The notes under the pieces: model-generated
Told to the model about the DNA's origin: nothing
The model's input: only the letters and a program-made list of their open reading frames with translations
Databases searched by the model: none
Sequence record: OR621298
From: Escherichia phage vB_EcoD-Elw
Reading direction: 5' to 3' (one strand)
Length of the DNA: 64,000 nucleotides
Shown: in pieces, positions 5,178 to 60,084 of the stretch
Numbering within the stretch: position 1 is the first letter of the stretch
Layout: every line of letters begins with the position of its first letter
Position numbers and translations under genes: made by a program

Positions 5178-5348
5178 TTATATTTGCCTTGCCCTACTTG
5201 ACAAAACTTAAAAAGCTCGTGGTAGCGATAAACGAGGGTAGGCAATGCAATGGCATGGCTAAAACTTTCATCGCGTTCTAGGGCGTTTTAGGCGCATTCT
5301 AGCCTTGTTGATAACTTATCCCCAAAAGCAAAAATGAAATTTTCCTAG

Positions 5349-5746
5349 TTATCCACTTGACTTTTATTTTCCAGTGGATAACTACTTATTTTATGAAATA
5401 AATTAATTGACTTTTATTTGTTAGTATGCATCGGAAGAATAGCAGACTAATAATTACTAGAATAATAATCATGCTGGTGGATTGTAACGGCCTAAACTAT
5501 CAGCAGACTATTAATCACGAAAAATCTCGTTAGCTAACTAACTATTTCATGATGTATAATATACATATAAATTAATGAGAAATAATAATTATAATAAATA
5601 ATAACTACAGTAAATAATAACTATAAGAAACTATCGGCCTAAGTGAGAACCACTATCATTTAAGTTATACACAAAGTTATCCACAGCACTTTTTGACTTT
5701 ACACGATAGGCGGCGATATAAGGACTTTTACACAGACTTATCCACA
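5349..5746. promoter_or_regulatory. DnaA-box cluster (5349-5357, 5373-5381 inverted, 5677-5685, 5738-5746)
   Basis: TTATCCAC(A/T) matches; the first two form a 9-bp inverted pair with a 15-bp spacer. Confidence 0.55.
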
Positions 5747-9183: not shown

Positions 9184-9265
9184 TGTGGATAAGTCTGTTA
9201 ATAACGCCTCAAAATGGCTAGGATTCTGTCAAGTCAAATCGTGCTGTTAATAAGTCTGTGGATAA
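9184..9265. promoter_or_regulatory. DnaA boxes (9184-9192 and 9257-9265, both TGTGGATAA)
   Basis: Two perfect reverse-complement matches to TTATCCACA within direct repeats of aagtctgttaataa. Confidence 0.55.
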
Positions 9266-29588: not shown

Positions 29589-30088
29589 AATTGAAAACTC
29601 GCAGGGTTAGCGAAACCTTCCTCAATTAGCATGTTCTAGAATACTAATCAAGTTATCTCCTATTGCACGCAGCTCAAGACGAGTACGAATTTTCAATTGT
29701 GGTGGCTCTCAGAAACTCTTCTACTCTAGCCTTAGCAGCTTACTCCCGAACGCATGTCGGGGAAGTCTTACTAAGAGCTTCGAATAGCACCGTTACACTT
29801 TGAGCCATAGATGTATCAAGAAGCAGAAGGACTTGAACCTTCACGAGATAGACCATTTATCTCAGCCGCTTTATGAGGTATGTTGCAGGGAGTGGATGTT
29901 CCCTATAAACCTTTTAGGCAGCCCCGTCTACCGATTCCAGCATACTTCAAGAATTTTTATAAACCAGCAGAAGCCTCATTTAAAGCATCAACAATAGCTT
30001 CACGTTGGGTCATTCCATACCCAGTGGAATCTAGGTGTGGCAAATAAGCCATCCATCCCTTATCTGTTTCATGAAGGCATGCTTTAAA

Positions 30089-30997: not shown

Positions 30998-31357
30998 TGC
31001 GTTAACCCCTGTAAGTTTACTAAGGCTATTAGCTCGGCGTAACTACAGCACCTTCGCTTCGAGCGGAAGGAACTGCGTCATCTCGCAAACCCGATACACT
31101 ATTCAGTTGCCGCTGAATCTAGTGGACTAATCTAGAACTTCTCCCGAATTGTAGGGATCGTGCTTTTTGGCAGCCAGTCCTAGGTCGAGCTAATACCTTA
31201 GTGAACTAAATTGATGGATACCAGACTAATTTTGCTACGACGTTTATCCTGAGGATCTCTTTTTCGGTAGCTCTGCTAGTGTAGACGTCATACACCTGGT
31301 ATCTAGGCAGCTATTTTCGCATCAATTTATATAAATATTATAACAAGAAATTAAGCA

Positions 31358-32415: not shown

Positions 32416-32725
32416 TTTGCTTTCCTTCTCTTCACTTTATAAAATATATTATACAGATAATATAGCAGAATAGCAAATGAATTTTTAATAAATTTACTTA
32501 TTGTGTAGGCCACCTGGAGGCTACCAACCCCACGGCTGACAAAGAAGTTTGCGAGACCTCTCTTAAATGCCAGAATAGACCCGCCGATCTATCGGAACCT
32601 ACATAATAAGTAAACTTTCGTTTACTTACGCCCCGTTAGAGGGACTTTAGCGACTAGAACCGGCCGGAAACTTCATCGCCTTGTTTATTCAGAAGTCCGT
32701 TCTCTAGGGAGCAGAAATCTAAATT

Positions 32726-32800: not shown

Positions 32801-32979
32801 TTTAAATATTTATACGTTTTATCTAACAACTCTTGTTTAGAGATTATACCATCACGATATTCAGTAATAAAATTATCTATGTTGGAGTCCTTTGATACAA
32901 CGTTATCAGATAGCTCTGTGAATTTATTTGCTAAAAGATCTAATTCTTTGTAATTCACAAAACCTCCAGAATATGCCAT
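32788..32979 (-). CDS. hypothetical protein
   Basis: 63-aa ORF. Confidence 0.4.
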   Translation of the reverse strand: MAYSGGFVNYKELDLLANKFTELSDNVVSKDSNIDNFITEYRDGIISKQELLDKTYKYLKGFS

Positions 32980-33219
32980 TCTAGACAGGACTCGAACCTG
33001 CTATCACTTGTGCGGACTTACGAGAACCATTCTTTCACTCGAATCGAACGAGCTTCTGCCCTAGCCAAGCTGGTTTCCCCATCAACCACGCTAGAATGTT
33101 TGATTGTTTTCAGTGCAAGAGTCCGAGTCTTGGACACGACCGCTTCGCAAGTACATAGGCAGCTTATCATGAGTCAGCACTTCCGAATTGCTAGCTCCGT
33201 GTTCTGCACTGAGATTTTG

Positions 33220-34144: not shown

Positions 34145-34215
34145 TGGTATCTGTGGCTGAATTCGATGTCAGCAATGATAGCTGGTTGGCTACCGGTTTA
34201 CTTAACTCTACACAG
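34145..34215 (-). other. tRNA-like element with 8-nt T-loop and imperfect acceptor
   Basis: 3' ...GATACCA end and GCTGA/TCAGC stem around a CATCGAAT loop; no standard anticodon arm found. Confidence 0.25.
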
Positions 34216-34219
34216 AATT

Positions 34220-39483: not shown

Positions 39484-40431
39484 TTACTTATTACGCATAT
39501 CCATAATCATTTGGCCATCATAGCCAGTGCCAACCACAGTCTGCGGTACACCACCTTGGTATTTCTGAGCACGAATCATTTCAACTTCCAGTTGCTTCCA
39601 GCGAATCATCTCAGGAGTAATGGTACGTTGCAACGCGGCGTTAGCTTCAGCTTCTTTCTTAGCTGCGTACAGTTTGGCATCTGCGTCACGCTCATTGGCA
39701 ATAGCTTGGTTATTACGAGCTTCGCGATCTGCTTCTGCTTGTTTAACCTTCTGCTGTGCTTCTTGTTCAACACGAGCCAGTTCAGCTTTCGCAGCATTAA
39801 CTTGCTCTTCACGAACTTTGGTATTCTGTACCTGTTCCATGATTACCGGTGGCAAAGTAATATCCTGAAGGAATACCTGCTTAACTGTATAACCATATGG
39901 GCGTGCATACTCTTCAACTTCCTGTTGAATTGCAGTTTGCAATTGAGCCTGAATTTTAGCATCAAACAAATCTTGTGCTTTAGGTACAGACTTACCAAAC
40001 TCACGAATAGTAGACAGTAATTTTTCAGTTACATATTTGTCTAGCGCTTGATCCTGAGTACCTGCGTTAATACGGTTAATCGGTGCCTTAGAACCATCAA
40101 ACTGCAACATAACAGTCAGGTCAACAGTGGATTTAAACTTATCCTGACTAGGAACCTGAAGTTTATCTAATTTTAGAGCAATATCTTTAGTACTAAAAGT
40201 ATCGAAAGAAGCAAAAGGATTTACAATATGAAAGCCGGGTAGTACTGGGCTAGGGTCAACTTTACCCAGGAAAGTCTGGGTTTTAACAGTACCGTCTTGA
40301 ACAACGGTATAAGAGTTAAAGGCTAGAATCAAGCCTGCTAAACCAACTATAGCACCAATACCCCAACGTTTAATAGTACGAATTACTTTCTGCTCAGAAG
40401 TCAGTTCTTTCATATTTTTAGTATTAAACAT
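39484..40431 (-). CDS. SPFH/band-7 (prohibitin/HflC-like) membrane protein
   Basis: 315-aa ORF; N-terminal TM, SPFH-like core, C-terminal coiled-coil rich in E/A/Q/K. Confidence 0.6.
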   Translation of the reverse strand: MFNTKNMKELTSEQKVIRTIKRWGIGAIVGLAGLILAFNSYTVVQDGTVKTQTFLGKVDPSPVLPGFHIVNPFASFDTFSTKDIALKLDKLQVPSQDKFKSTVDLTVMLQFDGSKAPINRINAGTQDQALDKYVTEKLLSTIREFGKSVPKAQDLFDAKIQAQLQTAIQQEVEEYARPYGYTVKQVFLQDITLPPVIMEQVQNTKVREEQVNAAKAELARVEQEAQQKVKQAEADREARNNQAIANERDADAKLYAAKKEAEANAALQRTITPEMIRWKQLEVEMIRAQKYQGGVPQTVVGTGYDGQMIMDMRNK

Positions 40432-40465
40432 ATATTTCCTTTGTTTTAGTTACAGTTAATAAAAT

Positions 40466-40540
40466 TGGCCGAGGTGACAGGATTCGAACCTGCATAAAGG
40501 AATTTAGAAGACTCCTGCCTCTCCATTAGACTACACCCCG
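40466..40540 (-). tRNA. tRNA-Arg (TCT)
   Basis: Anticodon arm GGAGT-CTTCTAA-ATTCC, T-arm GCAGG-TTCGAAT-CCTGT, acceptor CGGGGTG/CACCTCG, CCA. Confidence 0.6.
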
Positions 40541-41337
40541 TTTAAGTATTTTTAAGAACTCTCGTAAAAACTCTTAAAAATACAGACGATACCGGGAGAG
40601 TCATAAGTCTCACTCATTAAGTATTTCAAGACAAAATACAGTAACGTCTATTATTTTCCAGTTTAAGTCAAGGTGACTTAGTGGTTATGTCCTGCGGTAT
40701 ACTGAGGACTCGGTTAGGATTGGGGTCATGACTTCCCGCCTTTTGCTGCTACTCAACAGGAGTTATCGCGAATTACCTGTGCTATTGTGCACCATTAGTG
40801 ACATCTCTCATGTCAGCATTTCCCACTTTGTGGATAGCTTGAAAAACTACTCCGATATGGAGAAAGAACTTCACTATCCTAGAATACCTTCTAAAGTTCT
40901 TCTTTAGCCTGGACATAGTTAAATCGTAATAAAACTATTCAGCAGACTAGTTGGTTAGTCTGGAACCAACTACCGCGTGGTTTAGGCAGTGCGCAACTAA
41001 CCTCGGAAGCTTTTACGTTAAAAGCATCAGTTATCCAGTTCTTACCGACCGTAGGATTCGAACCTACATCTTCCACCAGTTACGGCTTGATAATACCAAT
41101 TATACTAGGACGGCAGTGTTACTACATAAGTGATTTCCACACCCCACTATTTATAAATTAGGGAAGAGTTTAGGGGAGAGGTTTCAGACGCCTCATTTTA
41201 TACGTTCTAGCCACTAACCGGGATTGCCGCCCCCTGTGTACTAGTTTTACAACTAACCCACCGACTCTATTCAATGCGCTCCGGTTGGGATTCTGCACTC
41301 AGCGTAATCGGCTCGCTGTTCCCTAATTTATGAATAT

Positions 41338-41366
41338 ATTATACAGAATTTATAAGCATTTAGCAA
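41338..41366 (-). promoter_or_regulatory. T5-type early promoter reading into the 40.5-41.3 kb non-coding region and tRNA-Arg
   Basis: -10 TATAAT, -35 TTGCTA, 17-bp spacer. Confidence 0.55.
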
Positions 41367-41374
41367 ATGAATTT

Positions 41375-41809
41375 TTAGAAAAATTCACTAGCGATCAAAG
41401 CAGTTGTTTTACCGTCATAACGTCCAGGAAATTCTGCCTTAATAGTTTTCATTAATAGAGCTTTGGTAATACCTGGATTTAATTTAACCAGTTCTGCAAA
41501 ATACTCACGAATCTGAACTTCAGTTAACTGCTCCAGAGCATATTCATGCTCTAGACCTGCTAACAAGTCGAGATATTCAGCATCTGGAGTATATTCGATA
41601 TTTGCTTTTGCAGCAGAAGTCATTGTATTCTCAATTGCTTTGAACTGTGATTTAACCCAGTTAGTAAACTCTAGTCTAGATACGCAATCTTTATCAATTC
41701 GTTGTAAGTCGCCTAAAATCGTACTAAGGTGCTTGACTGACACAGTATCACCGTGTTTGCGAGCTTTTTCAATTAATTCTCGCAGCACACGAATCATATT
41801 CGTACCCAT
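41375..41809 (-). CDS. hypothetical protein
   Basis: 144-aa ORF; start overlaps upstream stop (TAATG). Confidence 0.5.
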   Translation of the reverse strand: MGTNMIRVLRELIEKARKHGDTVSVKHLSTILGDLQRIDKDCVSRLEFTNWVKSQFKAIENTMTSAAKANIEYTPDAEYLDLLAGLEHEYALEQLTEVQIREYFAELVKLNPGITKALLMKTIKAEFPGRYDGKTTALIASEFF

Positions 41810-59587: not shown

Positions 59588-60084
59588 ATTTATATTGAAT
59601 TGAGAGACATTAGTAAAAATTGATTTTGCTAATTTTTCTTGTTTACAATCCGCGATACGGAACAGTTAGGCTGCCCCATTAAGGGTTGTTTTAACTATTA
59701 CTAGTGTTTATATTGCATTAGTTAATCTTCAATTAAGTGATCTGTGTACCCTGAATTCGGAAAGGTAAATCCAAACCGTGCATATTTAGCTCGTTATATA
59801 GGCAGAGTTTTATATGGGGGTGCGAACGAAAAGAGCAGCGAATGGCGGCACGTACAGTAGTCACCTACCAATAGGATAGTGAGGACAAATAGAATCGGCT
59901 TAGCGGCCAATGACCTAGGTTCTATTCTGTATATGAGCGAAGAGAGCACAGCACTGAGATATGATAACTTATTCATATTGCTTGATGATAATTAATGTTT
60001 ACGTAAATAGTAGTAATAGTTGTTCTATTCTTTCTGAATAGTCCTAAAGAAAAGATTTCGATTAACCAACACAGGAGTATTGTT

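What the first reader, a model, noticed from the sequence alone, without database searches (positions are those of the whole stretch)
40545..41330. ~800-bp non-coding stretch downstream of an early promoter, containing a T-arm-like hairpin and a DnaA-box-like site
In a genome otherwise packed with overlapping genes, this interval has no credible ORF (track ORF 40951..41133 is a lone 60-aa frame). It is transcribed leftward from the promoter at 41338-41366 toward tRNA-Arg. It contains a perfect GTAGG-TTCGAAT-CCTAC T-arm-like hairpin (~41052-41068) and a TGTGGATAG DnaA-like site (~40818-40826). Similar long leaders occur at 31000-31320 (upstream of the HNH gene) and 59590-60084 (ahead of the 929-aa gene).
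Basis: seen in the sequence. Interest (0 to 1): 0.5.

Follow-up and report, generated by a model that had tools for sequence, protein, structure and literature searches.

The report
Large structured phage RNA (T5 RNAX)
The "empty" 800 bases are the rnaX gene of T5-like phages: a large, elaborately folded non-coding RNA carrying a tRNA look-alike, listed in GenBank as a stable RNA but never explained, and resembling the giant phage RNAs GOLLD and ROOL found next to tRNA clusters.

Summary
The interval is real non-coding DNA, but it is more than a leader. It is homologous to the feature annotated "rnaX, RNAX, stable RNA with unknown functions" in phage T5 and BF23. On the minus strand it gives an RNA of about 790 nt. 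The RNA runs from an early sigma-70 promoter (about 41331) to the 5' end of tRNA-Arg (40541).

I compared 24 to 48 relatives from four genera of T5-like phages. The RNA is a fixed series of self-closed structured domains, and many base pairs are kept by compensatory changes. G.U pairs outnumber A.C by 142 to 12, which fixes the strand.

That domain sits on a covarying 12-bp stalk formed by its own leader and trailer. Its anticodon arm is degenerate, with a 6-nt loop, so it cannot decode. In some relatives a non-tRNA insert replaces it.

No ORF is conserved. The DnaA-like 9-mer lies at 40829-40837, is no more than chance gives, and is not conserved even in T5. There is no support for an origin.

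No Rfam family other than tRNA matches. Function remains unknown. The closest analogues are the GOLLD and ROOL RNAs.

The parts
41338..41366 (-). Early sigma-70 promoter (-35 TTGCTA 41366-41361; -10 TATAAT 41343-41338). The transcription start is inferred at about 41331.
   Evidence: 10/12 match. The homologous feature is annotated 'promoter P16-17' in T5 and BF23.
40541..41331 (-). RNAX, a structured non-coding RNA of about 790 nt. It may be one RNA or a precursor of several.
   Evidence: The matching parts are 92-99% identical to the T5 misc_RNA rnaX, 'stable RNA with unknown functions'. BF23 rnaX is 784 nt. No terminator is predicted on this strand. No ORF is conserved.
41153..41332 (-). 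5' domain. It is closed by the 13-bp helix P1 (41331-41319 AUAAAUUAGGGAA with 41165-41153 UUCCCUAAUUUAU). It contains hairpin P2 (41318-41300 CAGCG-AGCCGAUUA-CGCUG).
   Evidence: Alignment of 16 relatives. Pair counts: 97.6% paired; 4 pairs changed on both sides against 1.1 in shuffles (0/500); 38-49% paired in slid controls. In T5 the domain is reduced to a plain hairpin. In MET_P1, CitS1 and phage 2-3 an HNH gene replaces it.
41026..41134 (-). tRNA-like domain on its stalk. Helix H1 (41134-41121 with 41039-41026) is formed by the leader and trailer of the tRNA-like element. An internal loop follows: AACACU (41120-41115; AAUACU in 1 of 44 sequences) opposite AAGA (41043-41040).
   Evidence: RNAalifold. 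Pair counts: H1 has 12 pairs, 7 of them with compensatory changes, and 99.6% of cells paired. The whole module is 91.4% paired against 79.3% in shuffles (0/500), and 29-42% in slid controls.
41043..41114 (-). tRNA-like element. It has an acceptor-like stem GCCGUCC/GGUCGGU with a U.U mismatch kept in most relatives, a D arm with the conserved GG, a short 3-bp hairpin with a 6-nt loop GUAACU in place of an anticodon arm, and the T arm. No CCA is encoded.
   Evidence: Rfam tRNA 35.5 bits, cut-off 29. ARAGORN does not call it. Relatives are aligned. Genome records label it tRNA-OTHER, Pseudo, Undet, Sec or Ser.
41051..41067 (-).
   Evidence: Sequence checked. The stem covaries between relatives (GUAGG/CCUAC, GCAGG/CCUGC, GUGGG/CCCAC).
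41009..41025 (-). Hairpin H3, GCUUUU-AACGU-AAAAGC.
   Evidence: 100% of cells paired; 3 of 5 pairs have compensatory changes.
40973..41003 (-). Tentative H-type pseudoknot. A stem AGG..AG/CU..CCU has the loop UUGCG (40996-40992), which would pair with CGCGG (40977-40973).
   Evidence: Read by eye from alignment A1. There is one compensatory change (UUGCG/CGCGG to UUUCG/CGAGG in S124 and VAC51) and one mismatch (GSW6). The long-insert variants do not support it. Weak.
40845..40972 (-). Middle hairpin modules: UAGUUGGUU/AACCAACUA; GAAGAACUU/AAGUUCUUU enclosing UAGAA-GGUA-UUCUA; and CUCC-AUAUC-GGAG.
   Evidence: MFE z-score -2.15. UAGAA/UUCUA changes to UAGGC/GCCUA and UAGUC/GACUA in other lineages. 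This part is swapped for other modules in many relatives.
40829..40837 (+). DnaA-like 9-mer TGTGGATAG. Not a functional element. On the RNA strand it reads CUAUCCACA.
   Evidence: chance level. (not conserved).
40681..40826 (-). 3' core domain (module B). It is closed by GUGG/CCAC (40826-40823 with 40684-40681). It holds hairpins B2 (40815-40799), B3 (40794-40747), B4 (40741-40716) and B5 (40709-40689).
   Evidence: 97.9% paired against 93.5% in shuffles (0/500); 9 pairs changed on both sides against 4.3 (0/500); 34-47% paired in slid controls. B2, B4 and B5 carry the compensatory changes.
40726..40733 (-). Invariant loop AGUCAUGA of hairpin B4. It contains the self-complementary UCAUGA (GUCAUGAC with its neighbours).
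   Evidence: AGUCAUGACC is present in all 44 distinct homologues while the flanking stem varies. It occurs once in the window.
40665..40679 (-). Hairpin B6, AAGUCA-CCU-UGACUU. The conserved AAACUGGAA follows it.
   Evidence: Invariant in the 11 aligned sequences, so covariation says nothing for or against it.
40584..40650 (-). Tail module, closed by AGACG/CGUCU (40649-40645 with 40588-40584).
   Evidence: Other lineages carry a different insert closed by an equivalent helix, GACGG/CCGUC.
40546..40583 (-). Terminal AU-rich hairpin of 17 bp (GUAUUUUUAAGAGUUUU-UACG-AGAGUUCUUAAAAAUAC). The RNA ends five bases later with UUAAA (40545-40541).
   Evidence: It occurs once in the window and never in shuffles. 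It is mostly 92-100% identical across most of the 454 phage records matched, including Pectobacterium. Where a CDS separates RNAX from tRNA-Arg, the hairpin stays with RNAX.
40466..40540 (-). tRNA-Arg(UCU), co-transcribed directly downstream. Its 5' processing would create the 3' end of RNAX.

Best explanation
The interval is the rnaX gene of T5-like phages. It makes a multi-domain structured non-coding RNA of about 790 nt, read from the minus strand.

Shown or directly supported:
- It is homologous to the annotated 'stable RNA' RNAX of T5 and BF23.
- It lies downstream of a strong early sigma-70 promoter, and no terminator is predicted before tRNA-Arg.
- It has no conserved ORF.
- Its helices are maintained by compensatory substitutions across four genera.
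- The order of its domains is fixed: 5' domain, stalked tRNA-like domain, hairpins, 3' core, tail, terminal hairpin.

Inferred:
- The 5' end is locked in helix P1.
- The 3' end is made when RNase P cuts at the 5' end of tRNA-Arg, which leaves the 17-bp hairpin as a cap. Together these would explain the RNA's stability.

The mechanism I commit to (about 0.3-0.35): RNAX acts in trans as a structural RNA particle tied to the phage tRNA island, in the manner proposed for GOLLD and ROOL. It displays a tRNA acceptor/elbow mimic on a long stalk to some tRNA-binding factor. It may self-associate through the invariant palindromic loop AGUCAUGA.

It is not a decoding tRNA, not a protein gene and not an origin.
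For: - **Annotation.** T5 rnaX is 719 nt and BF23 rnaX is 784 nt, both labelled 'stable RNA with unknown functions'. The parts of the window that match T5 RNAX are 92-99% identical.
- **Covariation in three modules.** Module A: 18 pairs changed on both sides against 10.8 in shuffles (0/500), 91.4% of cells paired against 29-42% in slid controls. Module B: 9 against 4.3 (0/500), 97.9% paired. 5' domain: 4 against 1.1 (0/500), 97.6% paired.
- **Strand.** G.U 142 cells against A.C 12 cells within the helices.
- **No conserved ORF**.
- **Breadth.** Tequintavirus, Epseptimavirus, Sugarlandvirus and Hongcheonvirus all have it, with the same module order and lengths of roughly 590-1340 nt.
- **Conserved unpaired motifs.** AGUCAUGACC in 44 of 44 distinct sequences and AACACUGCC in 43 of 44.
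- **tRNA-like domain.** The D-loop GG and the T loop are conserved, but the anticodon arm is a 3-5 bp hairpin with a 6-nt loop in most relatives.
- **Parallels with GOLLD and ROOL** (PMC12286853). Those RNAs are phage-encoded and near tRNA islands. GOLLD has a conserved 3' region and a variable 5' region, and tRNAs sometimes sit in its linker.
Against: - I have no transcript data. 'Stable RNA' rests on two GenBank annotations, and I found no paper behind them.
- Thermodynamic stability is unremarkable. The z-score is -1.74 for the whole RNA and better on the other strand (-2.18). Modules A and B alone give z = -0.8 and 0.0.
- Each module is closed by its own helix, and I found no convincing pairing between modules. 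Modules are swapped, lost or replaced between lineages, which fits a string of separate small RNAs equally well.
- The GOLLD and ROOL models of Rfam do not match.
- Self-association and decoy function are analogy only. An invariant loop cannot be tested by covariation.
- The sequences are related and mosaic, so the shuffle controls overstate significance for some measures.
Confidence: 0.8

Rival explanations
1. The region is a polycistronic precursor, not one large RNA. RNase P, RNase III or RNase E would cut it into several stable RNAs of about 100-180 nt: the 5' domain, an excised tRNA-like RNA, the 3' core and the tail. T5 RNAIII, RNAI and RNA1 lie head to tail in the same way. Each piece would have its own, unknown role.
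For: - Every module is closed by its own helix: P1, H1, B1, and AGACG/CGUCU.
- Module sizes of 109-180 nt resemble those of T5 RNAI, RNAIII, RNA1, RNA2 and RNA2H, which are 106-172 nt and three of which are contiguous.
- Modules are lost or replaced independently between lineages.
- No inter-module helix was found.
- The tRNA-like element has U at position -1 and an intact acceptor/T-arm stack, as RNase P substrates do. That last comparison rests on my own knowledge of RNase P.
Against: - The GenBank annotators drew one 719-nt or 784-nt RNA.
- The module order is invariant in four genera.
- The leader and trailer of the tRNA-like element are base-paired (H1), which would hold the halves together even after excision.
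- In the GSW6, Kp150049, Sds2 and SE18 type, a non-tRNA insert replaces the cloverleaf, yet the stalk and internal loop are kept.
Confidence: 0.35
2. It is a long cis-acting 5' leader. Its structure would control the processing, stability or expression of the downstream tRNA-Arg and the SPFH lipoprotein gene in the same operon.
For: - There is no terminator between the promoter and tRNA-Arg or the SPFH gene. The bidirectional terminator lies beyond that gene.
- RNAX lies upstream of tRNA-Arg in every relative examined.
Against: - 600-1300 nt of covarying structure is far more than any known tRNA leader needs.
- In Epseptimavirus and Sugarlandvirus one to three CDSs separate RNAX from tRNA-Arg, yet the RNA and its terminal hairpin are kept.
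- It is annotated as a stable RNA in its own right.
Confidence: 0.1
3. It is evolutionary debris: a decaying tRNA pseudogene plus spacer and recombination scars left by homing endonucleases in the tRNA region.
For: - Several genome records label the element tRNA-Pseudo or tRNA-OTHER.
- HNH genes sit at module boundaries in some relatives.
- The region is mosaic.
Against: - Compensatory changes keep helices intact across genera.
- Unpaired motifs are invariant in 44 of 44 distinct sequences.
- The degenerate 'anticodon' hairpin itself covaries (GCC/GGU, GGC/GCC, ACC/GGU).
Confidence: 0.03
4. It is a DNA-level element, either a replication origin or a DnaA-binding region.
For: One 8/9 DnaA-box match at 40829-40837. 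The DNA of the terminal hairpin is a near-palindrome.
Against: - A single site is at chance frequency: 31 in the window against 19 +/- 4.9 expected.
- It is not conserved in T5, Sugarland-type phages or bobsandoy.
- Perfect DnaA boxes cluster elsewhere, at window 5306-5746 and 9184-9265. That matches the known DnaA-box-rich region at the FST/SST border (PMC10644984).
- The excess of G.U over A.C shows that selection acts on one RNA strand.
Confidence: 0.02

Closest known systems
rnaX (RNAX) of phage T5 (NC_005859, 40848-41566) and BF23 (AJ604530, 13651-14434), 'stable RNA with unknown functions'
   Same: It is the same locus, with the same strand, promoter (P16-17) and downstream tRNA-Arg. The parts matching T5 are 92-99% identical. 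The length is close to that of BF23 (784 nt).
   Different: T5 lacks the roughly 150-nt 5' domain, which is reduced to a hairpin, and carries an extra 65-85 nt near the 3' end. The annotation gives no structure, no domains and no function.
GOLLD RNA (giant ornate phage/prophage RNA)
   Same: Both are encoded by phages beside a tRNA island. Both are hundreds of nucleotides long, with many covarying helices, a conserved 3' part and a variable 5' part. GOLLD sometimes has a tRNA in a variable linker (PMC12286853). Function is unknown for both.
   Different: Rfam's GOLLD model finds nothing at E <= 10 in the window or E <= 1 in 13 relatives. Here the hosts are Enterobacterales and the phages are lytic. 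The embedded element is a non-decoding tRNA mimic. Nothing is known about multimer formation.
ROOL RNA (rumen-originating ornate large RNA)
   Same: Both are phage or prophage RNAs near tRNA islands, with complex multi-helix folds, possible pseudoknots and no known protein partner (PMC12286853).
   Different: The Rfam ROOL model does not match. The sequence and architecture are unrelated. Cage formation is untested.
Other stable RNAs of phage tRNA clusters: T5 RNA1, RNA2 and RNA3 ('tRNA-like stable RNA') and RNAI, RNAIII, RNAIV and RNA2H; also the T4 species 1 and 2 RNAs (from my own knowledge)
   Same: They are co-transcribed with phage tRNAs. They are released by processing, which I infer rather than show. 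Some are tRNA-like. Their function is unknown. The window holds homologues of all seven T5 RNAs.
   Different: Those RNAs are 73-172 nt. RNAX is four to ten times larger and has several domains.
Bacterial Y RNA YrlA and the MALAT1 mascRNA module (a tRNA mimic on a stem formed by flanking sequence)
   Same: Both present a tRNA-like acceptor/T/D module with a reduced anticodon arm on a helix formed by the sequences either side of it (PMC4201824 and PMC8457004, abstracts only).
   Different: No Rfam Y-RNA hit. The annotated genes next to the locus show no Ro60/Rsr homologue, and I ran no dedicated search for one. Here the module is internal to a much larger RNA.

Membership tests
T5-type rnaX (RNAX stable RNA) | Sequence homology to the annotated T5 and BF23 rnaX | tested here: met
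   T5 RNAX positions 1-138 match at 99.3% and positions 203-712 at 91.7%. Searches give the annotations.
T5-type rnaX (RNAX stable RNA) | Position between promoter P16-17 and tRNA-Arg(UCU), on the same strand | tested here: met
T5-type rnaX (RNAX stable RNA) | Accumulates as a stable transcript in infected cells | not testable with these tools
   This rests only on the wording of the GenBank annotations. I found no paper.
Canonical decoding tRNA | Match to the tRNA covariance model above Rfam's gathering score | tested here: met
   35.5 bits against a cut-off of 29. Relatives score 25-38 bits.
Canonical decoding tRNA | A 5-bp anticodon stem with a 7-nt loop | tested here: not met
   The stem is 3-5 bp. 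The loop is 6 nt (GUAACU, GUAAAU or UUCACC) in most relatives, shorter in Pectobacterium, and replaced by other stem-loops in some Sugarland-type phages. ARAGORN gives no call.
Canonical decoding tRNA | Fully paired 7-bp acceptor stem with free ends and a 3' CCA (encoded or added) | tested here: not met
   Positions 1-72 form G.U or G.A. A U5.U68 mismatch is kept in most relatives. AAGA follows the stem instead of CCA. The leader and trailer are paired in helix H1.
GOLLD RNA | Match to the family covariance model (conserved 3' domain) | tested here: not met
   No hit at E <= 10 over window 40300-41600, nor at E <= 1 in 13 homologous loci.
GOLLD RNA | Phage-encoded, next to a tRNA island, with a variable 5' part, a conserved 3' part and sometimes a tRNA in a variable region | tested here: met
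   The features of the family are as described in PMC12286853.
GOLLD RNA | Homo-oligomeric nanocage | not testable with these tools
   This needs native gels or cryo-EM. The only hint is the invariant palindromic loop AGUCAUGA.
ROOL RNA | Match to the family covariance model | tested here: not met
   Searches gave no hit.
DnaA-box cluster / replication origin | Several consensus DnaA boxes close together, conserved among relatives | tested here: not met
   There is one 8/9 site, at chance level, and it is not conserved.
Protein-coding gene | An ORF kept open, with conserved translation, in diverged relatives | tested here: not met
   the hits are partial or contain stops, and no ORF is shared.

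The most novel reading that the evidence does not exclude
RNAX is a third, independent class of giant ornate phage RNA, functionally analogous to GOLLD and ROOL. It would be an RNA particle encoded beside a tRNA island that self-associates (candidate contact: the invariant palindromic loop AGUCAUGA). It would display or enclose a tRNA mimic, so as to capture a host tRNA-binding enzyme or defence factor, or to organise phage tRNA use. The difference is that it occurs in the genetically tractable T5/E. coli system.
Probability: 0.3. Interest if true: 0.8.

Novelty: new member of a known kind. Interest (0 to 1): 0.55.

Why it matters
The locus has been in GenBank for about twenty years as "stable RNA with unknown functions". 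It has no Rfam family, and the searchable literature holds no structure, distribution or function for it.

In hundreds of T5-like phage genomes, many of them candidates for therapy or biocontrol, it is left blank or mis-annotated. Labels include tRNA-Sec, tRNA-Ser, pseudo-tRNA and strings of hypothetical proteins.

It is in fact a conserved structured RNA of 0.6-1.3 kb with an embedded tRNA mimic. That places it beside GOLLD and ROOL, whose biology is a long-standing open question and whose hosts are hard to manipulate.

T5 and E. coli would allow direct tests: deletion, complementation, RNase mutants, panels of defence systems, and cryo-EM.

Tried and rejected
- **Origin or DnaA box.** Rejected.
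- **Hidden ORFs.** Rejected. Some relatives do have lineage-specific ORFs of 105-122 aa inside variant modules, which I did not examine.
- **Known RNA families.** Rfam in E-value mode on the window region and on 13 relatives found only tRNA. A weak Hrs13 hit on the wrong strand was ignored.
- **Thermodynamic stability.** The z-scores are uninformative and do not separate the strands.
- **More distant relatives.**
  - The search for related loci with the upstream protein gave only 6 isolate genomes.
  - IMG/VR pattern scans gave 22 and 32 contigs, all T5-like by length and shared motifs.
  - The metagenome scan gave 5 contigs, all close to sequences I already had.
  - The bacterial-genome scan gave 7 hits that are chance matches with no extended similarity.
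  - tblastn with the SPFH protein led to T4-like phages rather than distant T5-like ones.
- **Upstream 144-aa gene as a tRNA-binding partner.** Relatives annotate it as tRNA amidotransferase or YqeY-like. It has no Pfam hit at E <= 0.01, and Sugarland-type phages lack it next to RNAX, so I dropped it as evidence.
- **Pairings between modules.** An all-against-all column scan was dominated by invariant columns and gave nothing convincing.
- **Pseudoknot after H3.** The evidence is weak, so I kept it only as tentative.
- **Literature.** Searches for RNAX and for T5 stable RNAs found no paper.
Full report
**What the window is.** The window is a T5-like phage. The best match is Salmonella phage SCF at 99.4%, and hundreds of Tequintavirus and Epseptimavirus records match. 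A 24-gene tRNA cluster lies on the minus strand. It ends with tRNA-Arg(UCU) at 40466-40540. The finding covers the interval between that tRNA and a promoter-like site on the minus strand. That site is TTGCTA-17-TATAAT at 41366..41338, a 10/12 match.

**Checking the observation.**
- The stretch is non-coding. The longest ORF is 60 aa. None of the five ORFs of 42-60 aa survives full-length in diverged relatives. The other two align only partially.
- The hairpin GUAGG-UUCGAAU-CCUAC lies at 41051-41067.
- The DnaA-like 9-mer TGTGGATAG lies at 40829-40837, not 40818-40826. It is one of 31 sites in the window with at most one mismatch, against 19 +/- 4.9 in shuffles.
- That 9-mer is not conserved. 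T5 reads CUACCAACA on the RNA strand, Sugarland-type phages begin CUAUCAA, and bobsandoy CUAUCAG.
- Perfect DnaA boxes do cluster at window 5306-5746 and 9184-9265. The literature describes a DnaA-box-rich non-coding region at the FST/SST border of T5 and BF23 (PMC10644984), which matches the 9.2-kb cluster.

**The locus is already named.** In the T5 reference record the homologous interval is the misc_RNA "rnaX, RNAX, stable RNA with unknown functions". It spans 40848-41566 on the minus strand (719 nt). It abuts tRNA-Arg and starts inside "promoter P16-17". The BF23 tRNA-region record annotates the same feature at 784 nt. T5 RNAX matches the window at 99.3% (positions 1-138) and 91.7% (positions 203-712). 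T5 also has seven shorter annotated "stable RNAs" in the tRNA region, and all have homologues in the window. I found no paper that describes RNAX.

**The hairpin belongs to a tRNA-like element.**
- Rfam's tRNA model matches 41043-41114(-) at 35.5 bits against a cut-off of 29. ARAGORN does not call it.
- Genome records label it tRNA-OTHER, Pseudo, Undet, Sec or Ser.
- In aligned relatives the T stem covaries: GUAGG/CCUAC, GCAGG/CCUGC and GUGGG/CCCAC.
- The acceptor-like stem covaries: GCCGUCC/GGUCGG, GCCCUCU/AGUGGG and GCCAGA/UCUGG.
- The D-loop GG is conserved.
- In most relatives the anticodon arm is a hairpin of only 3-5 bp with a 6-nt loop, and its stem also covaries.
- The 1-72 pair is G.U or G.A. 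A U5.U68 mismatch is kept in most relatives. No CCA is encoded.
- So it keeps the acceptor and elbow shape of a tRNA but cannot decode.

**The whole interval is structured RNA.** I collected the region from 24 phages and metagenome contigs, and later from 44 distinct sequences. They belong to Tequintavirus, Epseptimavirus, Sugarlandvirus and Hongcheonvirus (Pectobacterium). The region is 590-1340 nt long and mosaic, but the order of its modules never changes.
- **Stalk of the tRNA-like element.** RNAalifold found that the leader and trailer of the element pair with each other (helix H1, window 41134-41121 with 41039-41026). Seven of its 12 pairs show compensatory changes and 99.6% of cells are paired.
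- **Internal loop.** Between H1 and the acceptor-like stem lies a conserved internal loop: AACACU (AAUACU in 1 of 44 sequences) opposite AAGA.
- **Module A as a whole.** 91.4% of cells pair, against 79.3% in shuffles (0/500). Eighteen pairs changed on both sides, against 10.8 (0/500). Slid controls give 29-42% paired.
- **3' core (40826-40681).** 97.9% of cells pair, against 93.5% (0/500). Nine pairs changed on both sides, against 4.3 (0/500). Slid controls give 34-47%.
- **5' domain (41332-41153).** It is closed by a 13-bp helix that starts at the predicted 5' end of the transcript. 97.6% of cells pair, and 4 pairs changed on both sides against 1.1 (0/500).
- **Strand.** Across these helices G.U pairs outnumber A.C by 142 to 12. 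This assigns the structure to the window's minus strand.
- **Caveats.** The structures were derived from the same sequences, and those sequences are related, so the percentage-paired figures are somewhat inflated. The counts of pairs changed on both sides and the slid controls are the more robust measures.

**Modularity.**
- T5 has lost the 5' domain down to a plain hairpin.
- In MET_P1, CitS1 and phage 2-3 an HNH endonuclease gene takes the place of the 5' domain.
- In GSW6, Kp150049, Sds2 and SE18 a different small insert replaces the cloverleaf, while H1, the internal loop and the basal stem remain.
- The middle and tail modules come in alternative versions plugged into equivalent closing helices.
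- Several unpaired motifs are essentially invariant: AACACUGCC in 43 of 44 sequences and AGUCAUGACC in 44 of 44.
- The second of these is the 8-nt loop of hairpin B4 and contains the self-complementary UCAUGA. The stem around it varies while the loop does not.
- The terminal 17-bp AU-rich hairpin (40546-40583) is the most conserved piece of all. It is mostly 92-100% identical in most of the 454 records, including Pectobacterium. It stays with RNAX when a CDS separates RNAX from tRNA-Arg. Its conservation is of sequence rather than of pairing: most Epseptimavirus copies have a C.A mismatch.

**How it probably works.**
- *Shown or directly supported:* a strong early promoter; no terminator before tRNA-Arg; a structured, non-coding, strand-specific RNA.
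- *Inferred:* the 5' end is sequestered in P1, and the 3' end arises when RNase P cuts at tRNA-Arg. That leaves the hairpin plus UUAAA as a protected end, which would make the RNA stable.
- *Function, by analogy only:* I favour a trans-acting structural RNA tied to the tRNA island. It would present a tRNA acceptor/elbow mimic on a stalk, and it might self-associate through the palindromic loop. I put this at about 0.3-0.35.
- *Main rival (0.35):* the transcript is cut into several stable RNAs of 100-180 nt. Each module is self-closed. Module sizes match the other T5 stable RNAs, three of which lie head to tail. My scan for inter-module helices found nothing convincing.
- A role as a cis-acting leader, as debris or as an origin is unlikely, for the reasons given under the rival explanations.

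**Comparison with known systems.**
- It is a member of the annotated T5/BF23 rnaX locus.
- It is not a canonical tRNA, because the anticodon arm and the acceptor ends fail the defining features.
- It resembles GOLLD and ROOL in setting and architecture. Those RNAs are phage-encoded and lie near tRNA islands. GOLLD has a conserved 3' part and a variable 5' part, and sometimes a tRNA in its linker (PMC12286853).
- Rfam's models for those families do not match. It therefore works like them at most; it is not one of them.
- The tRNA mimic on a stem made from flanking sequence also recalls bacterial Y RNA (YrlA) and the MALAT1 mascRNA module. No family match supports membership in either.

**Distribution.** I found RNAX only in T5-like phages. 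Pattern scans of IMG/VR returned only contigs that look T5-like. Metagenome hits were close relatives. The seven bacterial-genome hits are chance matches.

**Verdict.** The origin idea is wrong. The "leader" is an annotated but uncharacterised large structured RNA. Its existence is already on record. Its architecture, breadth and resemblance to the giant phage RNAs are, as far as I could find, undescribed.

Noticed in passing
window 5306-5746 and 9184-9265: Consensus DnaA boxes cluster here. The first stretch has 2 perfect sites and 6 one-mismatch sites within 440 bp. The second has 2 perfect sites 73 bp apart. The second cluster matches the DnaA-box-rich non-coding region at the FST/SST border described for T5 and BF23 (PMC10644984).
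   Followed up: partly
window 29590-29951, 31024-31195, 32502-32604, 32974-33098, 34145-34217: These are homologues (84-100% identity) of the seven other T5 'stable RNAs with unknown functions': RNAIII, RNAI, RNA1, RNA2H, RNAIV, RNA2 and RNA3. None matches an Rfam family, apart from a weak tRNA hit for RNA1 (20.5 bits).
   Followed up: partly
window 41375-41809 (-): The 144-aa gene upstream of RNAX is a rare allele. Most T5-like phages carry a version only about 44-46% identical, annotated as tRNA amidotransferase, YqeY-like or recombination exonuclease. The window's protein has no Pfam hit at E <= 0.01.
   Followed up: partly
L012 1573-2055; L020 1603-2085; L051 1506-1988: An HNH homing-endonuclease gene sits exactly at the 5' edge of the conserved RNAX core, in place of the 5' domain.
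   Followed up: no
L012 476-985; L017 277-786; L018 376-885; L019 276-788; L020 477-986; L011 273-782: In several Epseptimavirus genomes a CDS of about 169 aa, annotated hypothetical, lies between the terminal hairpin of RNAX and tRNA-Arg. An RBS-like AAGGA follows the hairpin.
   Followed up: no
L015 932-1841; L056 974-2007; L055 1378-2056; L003 829-1399: Several genome records place chains of short 'hypothetical protein' CDSs, on either strand, across the RNAX region. These are probably over-calls. Others label the tRNA mimic tRNA-Sec(TCA) or tRNA-Ser(ACT).
   Followed up: partly
L004 1638-1703 (T5): T5 RNAX carries an extra segment near its 3' end that repeats the motif AGUCACCUUGAC..AAACUGGAA. 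It looks like a local duplication that the window lacks.
   Followed up: no
S132 (L019), CitS1 (L020), KpK7rec12 (L022) RNAX regions: Lineage-specific variant modules contain ORFs of 105-122 aa. I did not test whether any of them is a real small gene embedded in the RNA region.
   Followed up: no
   Followed up: no
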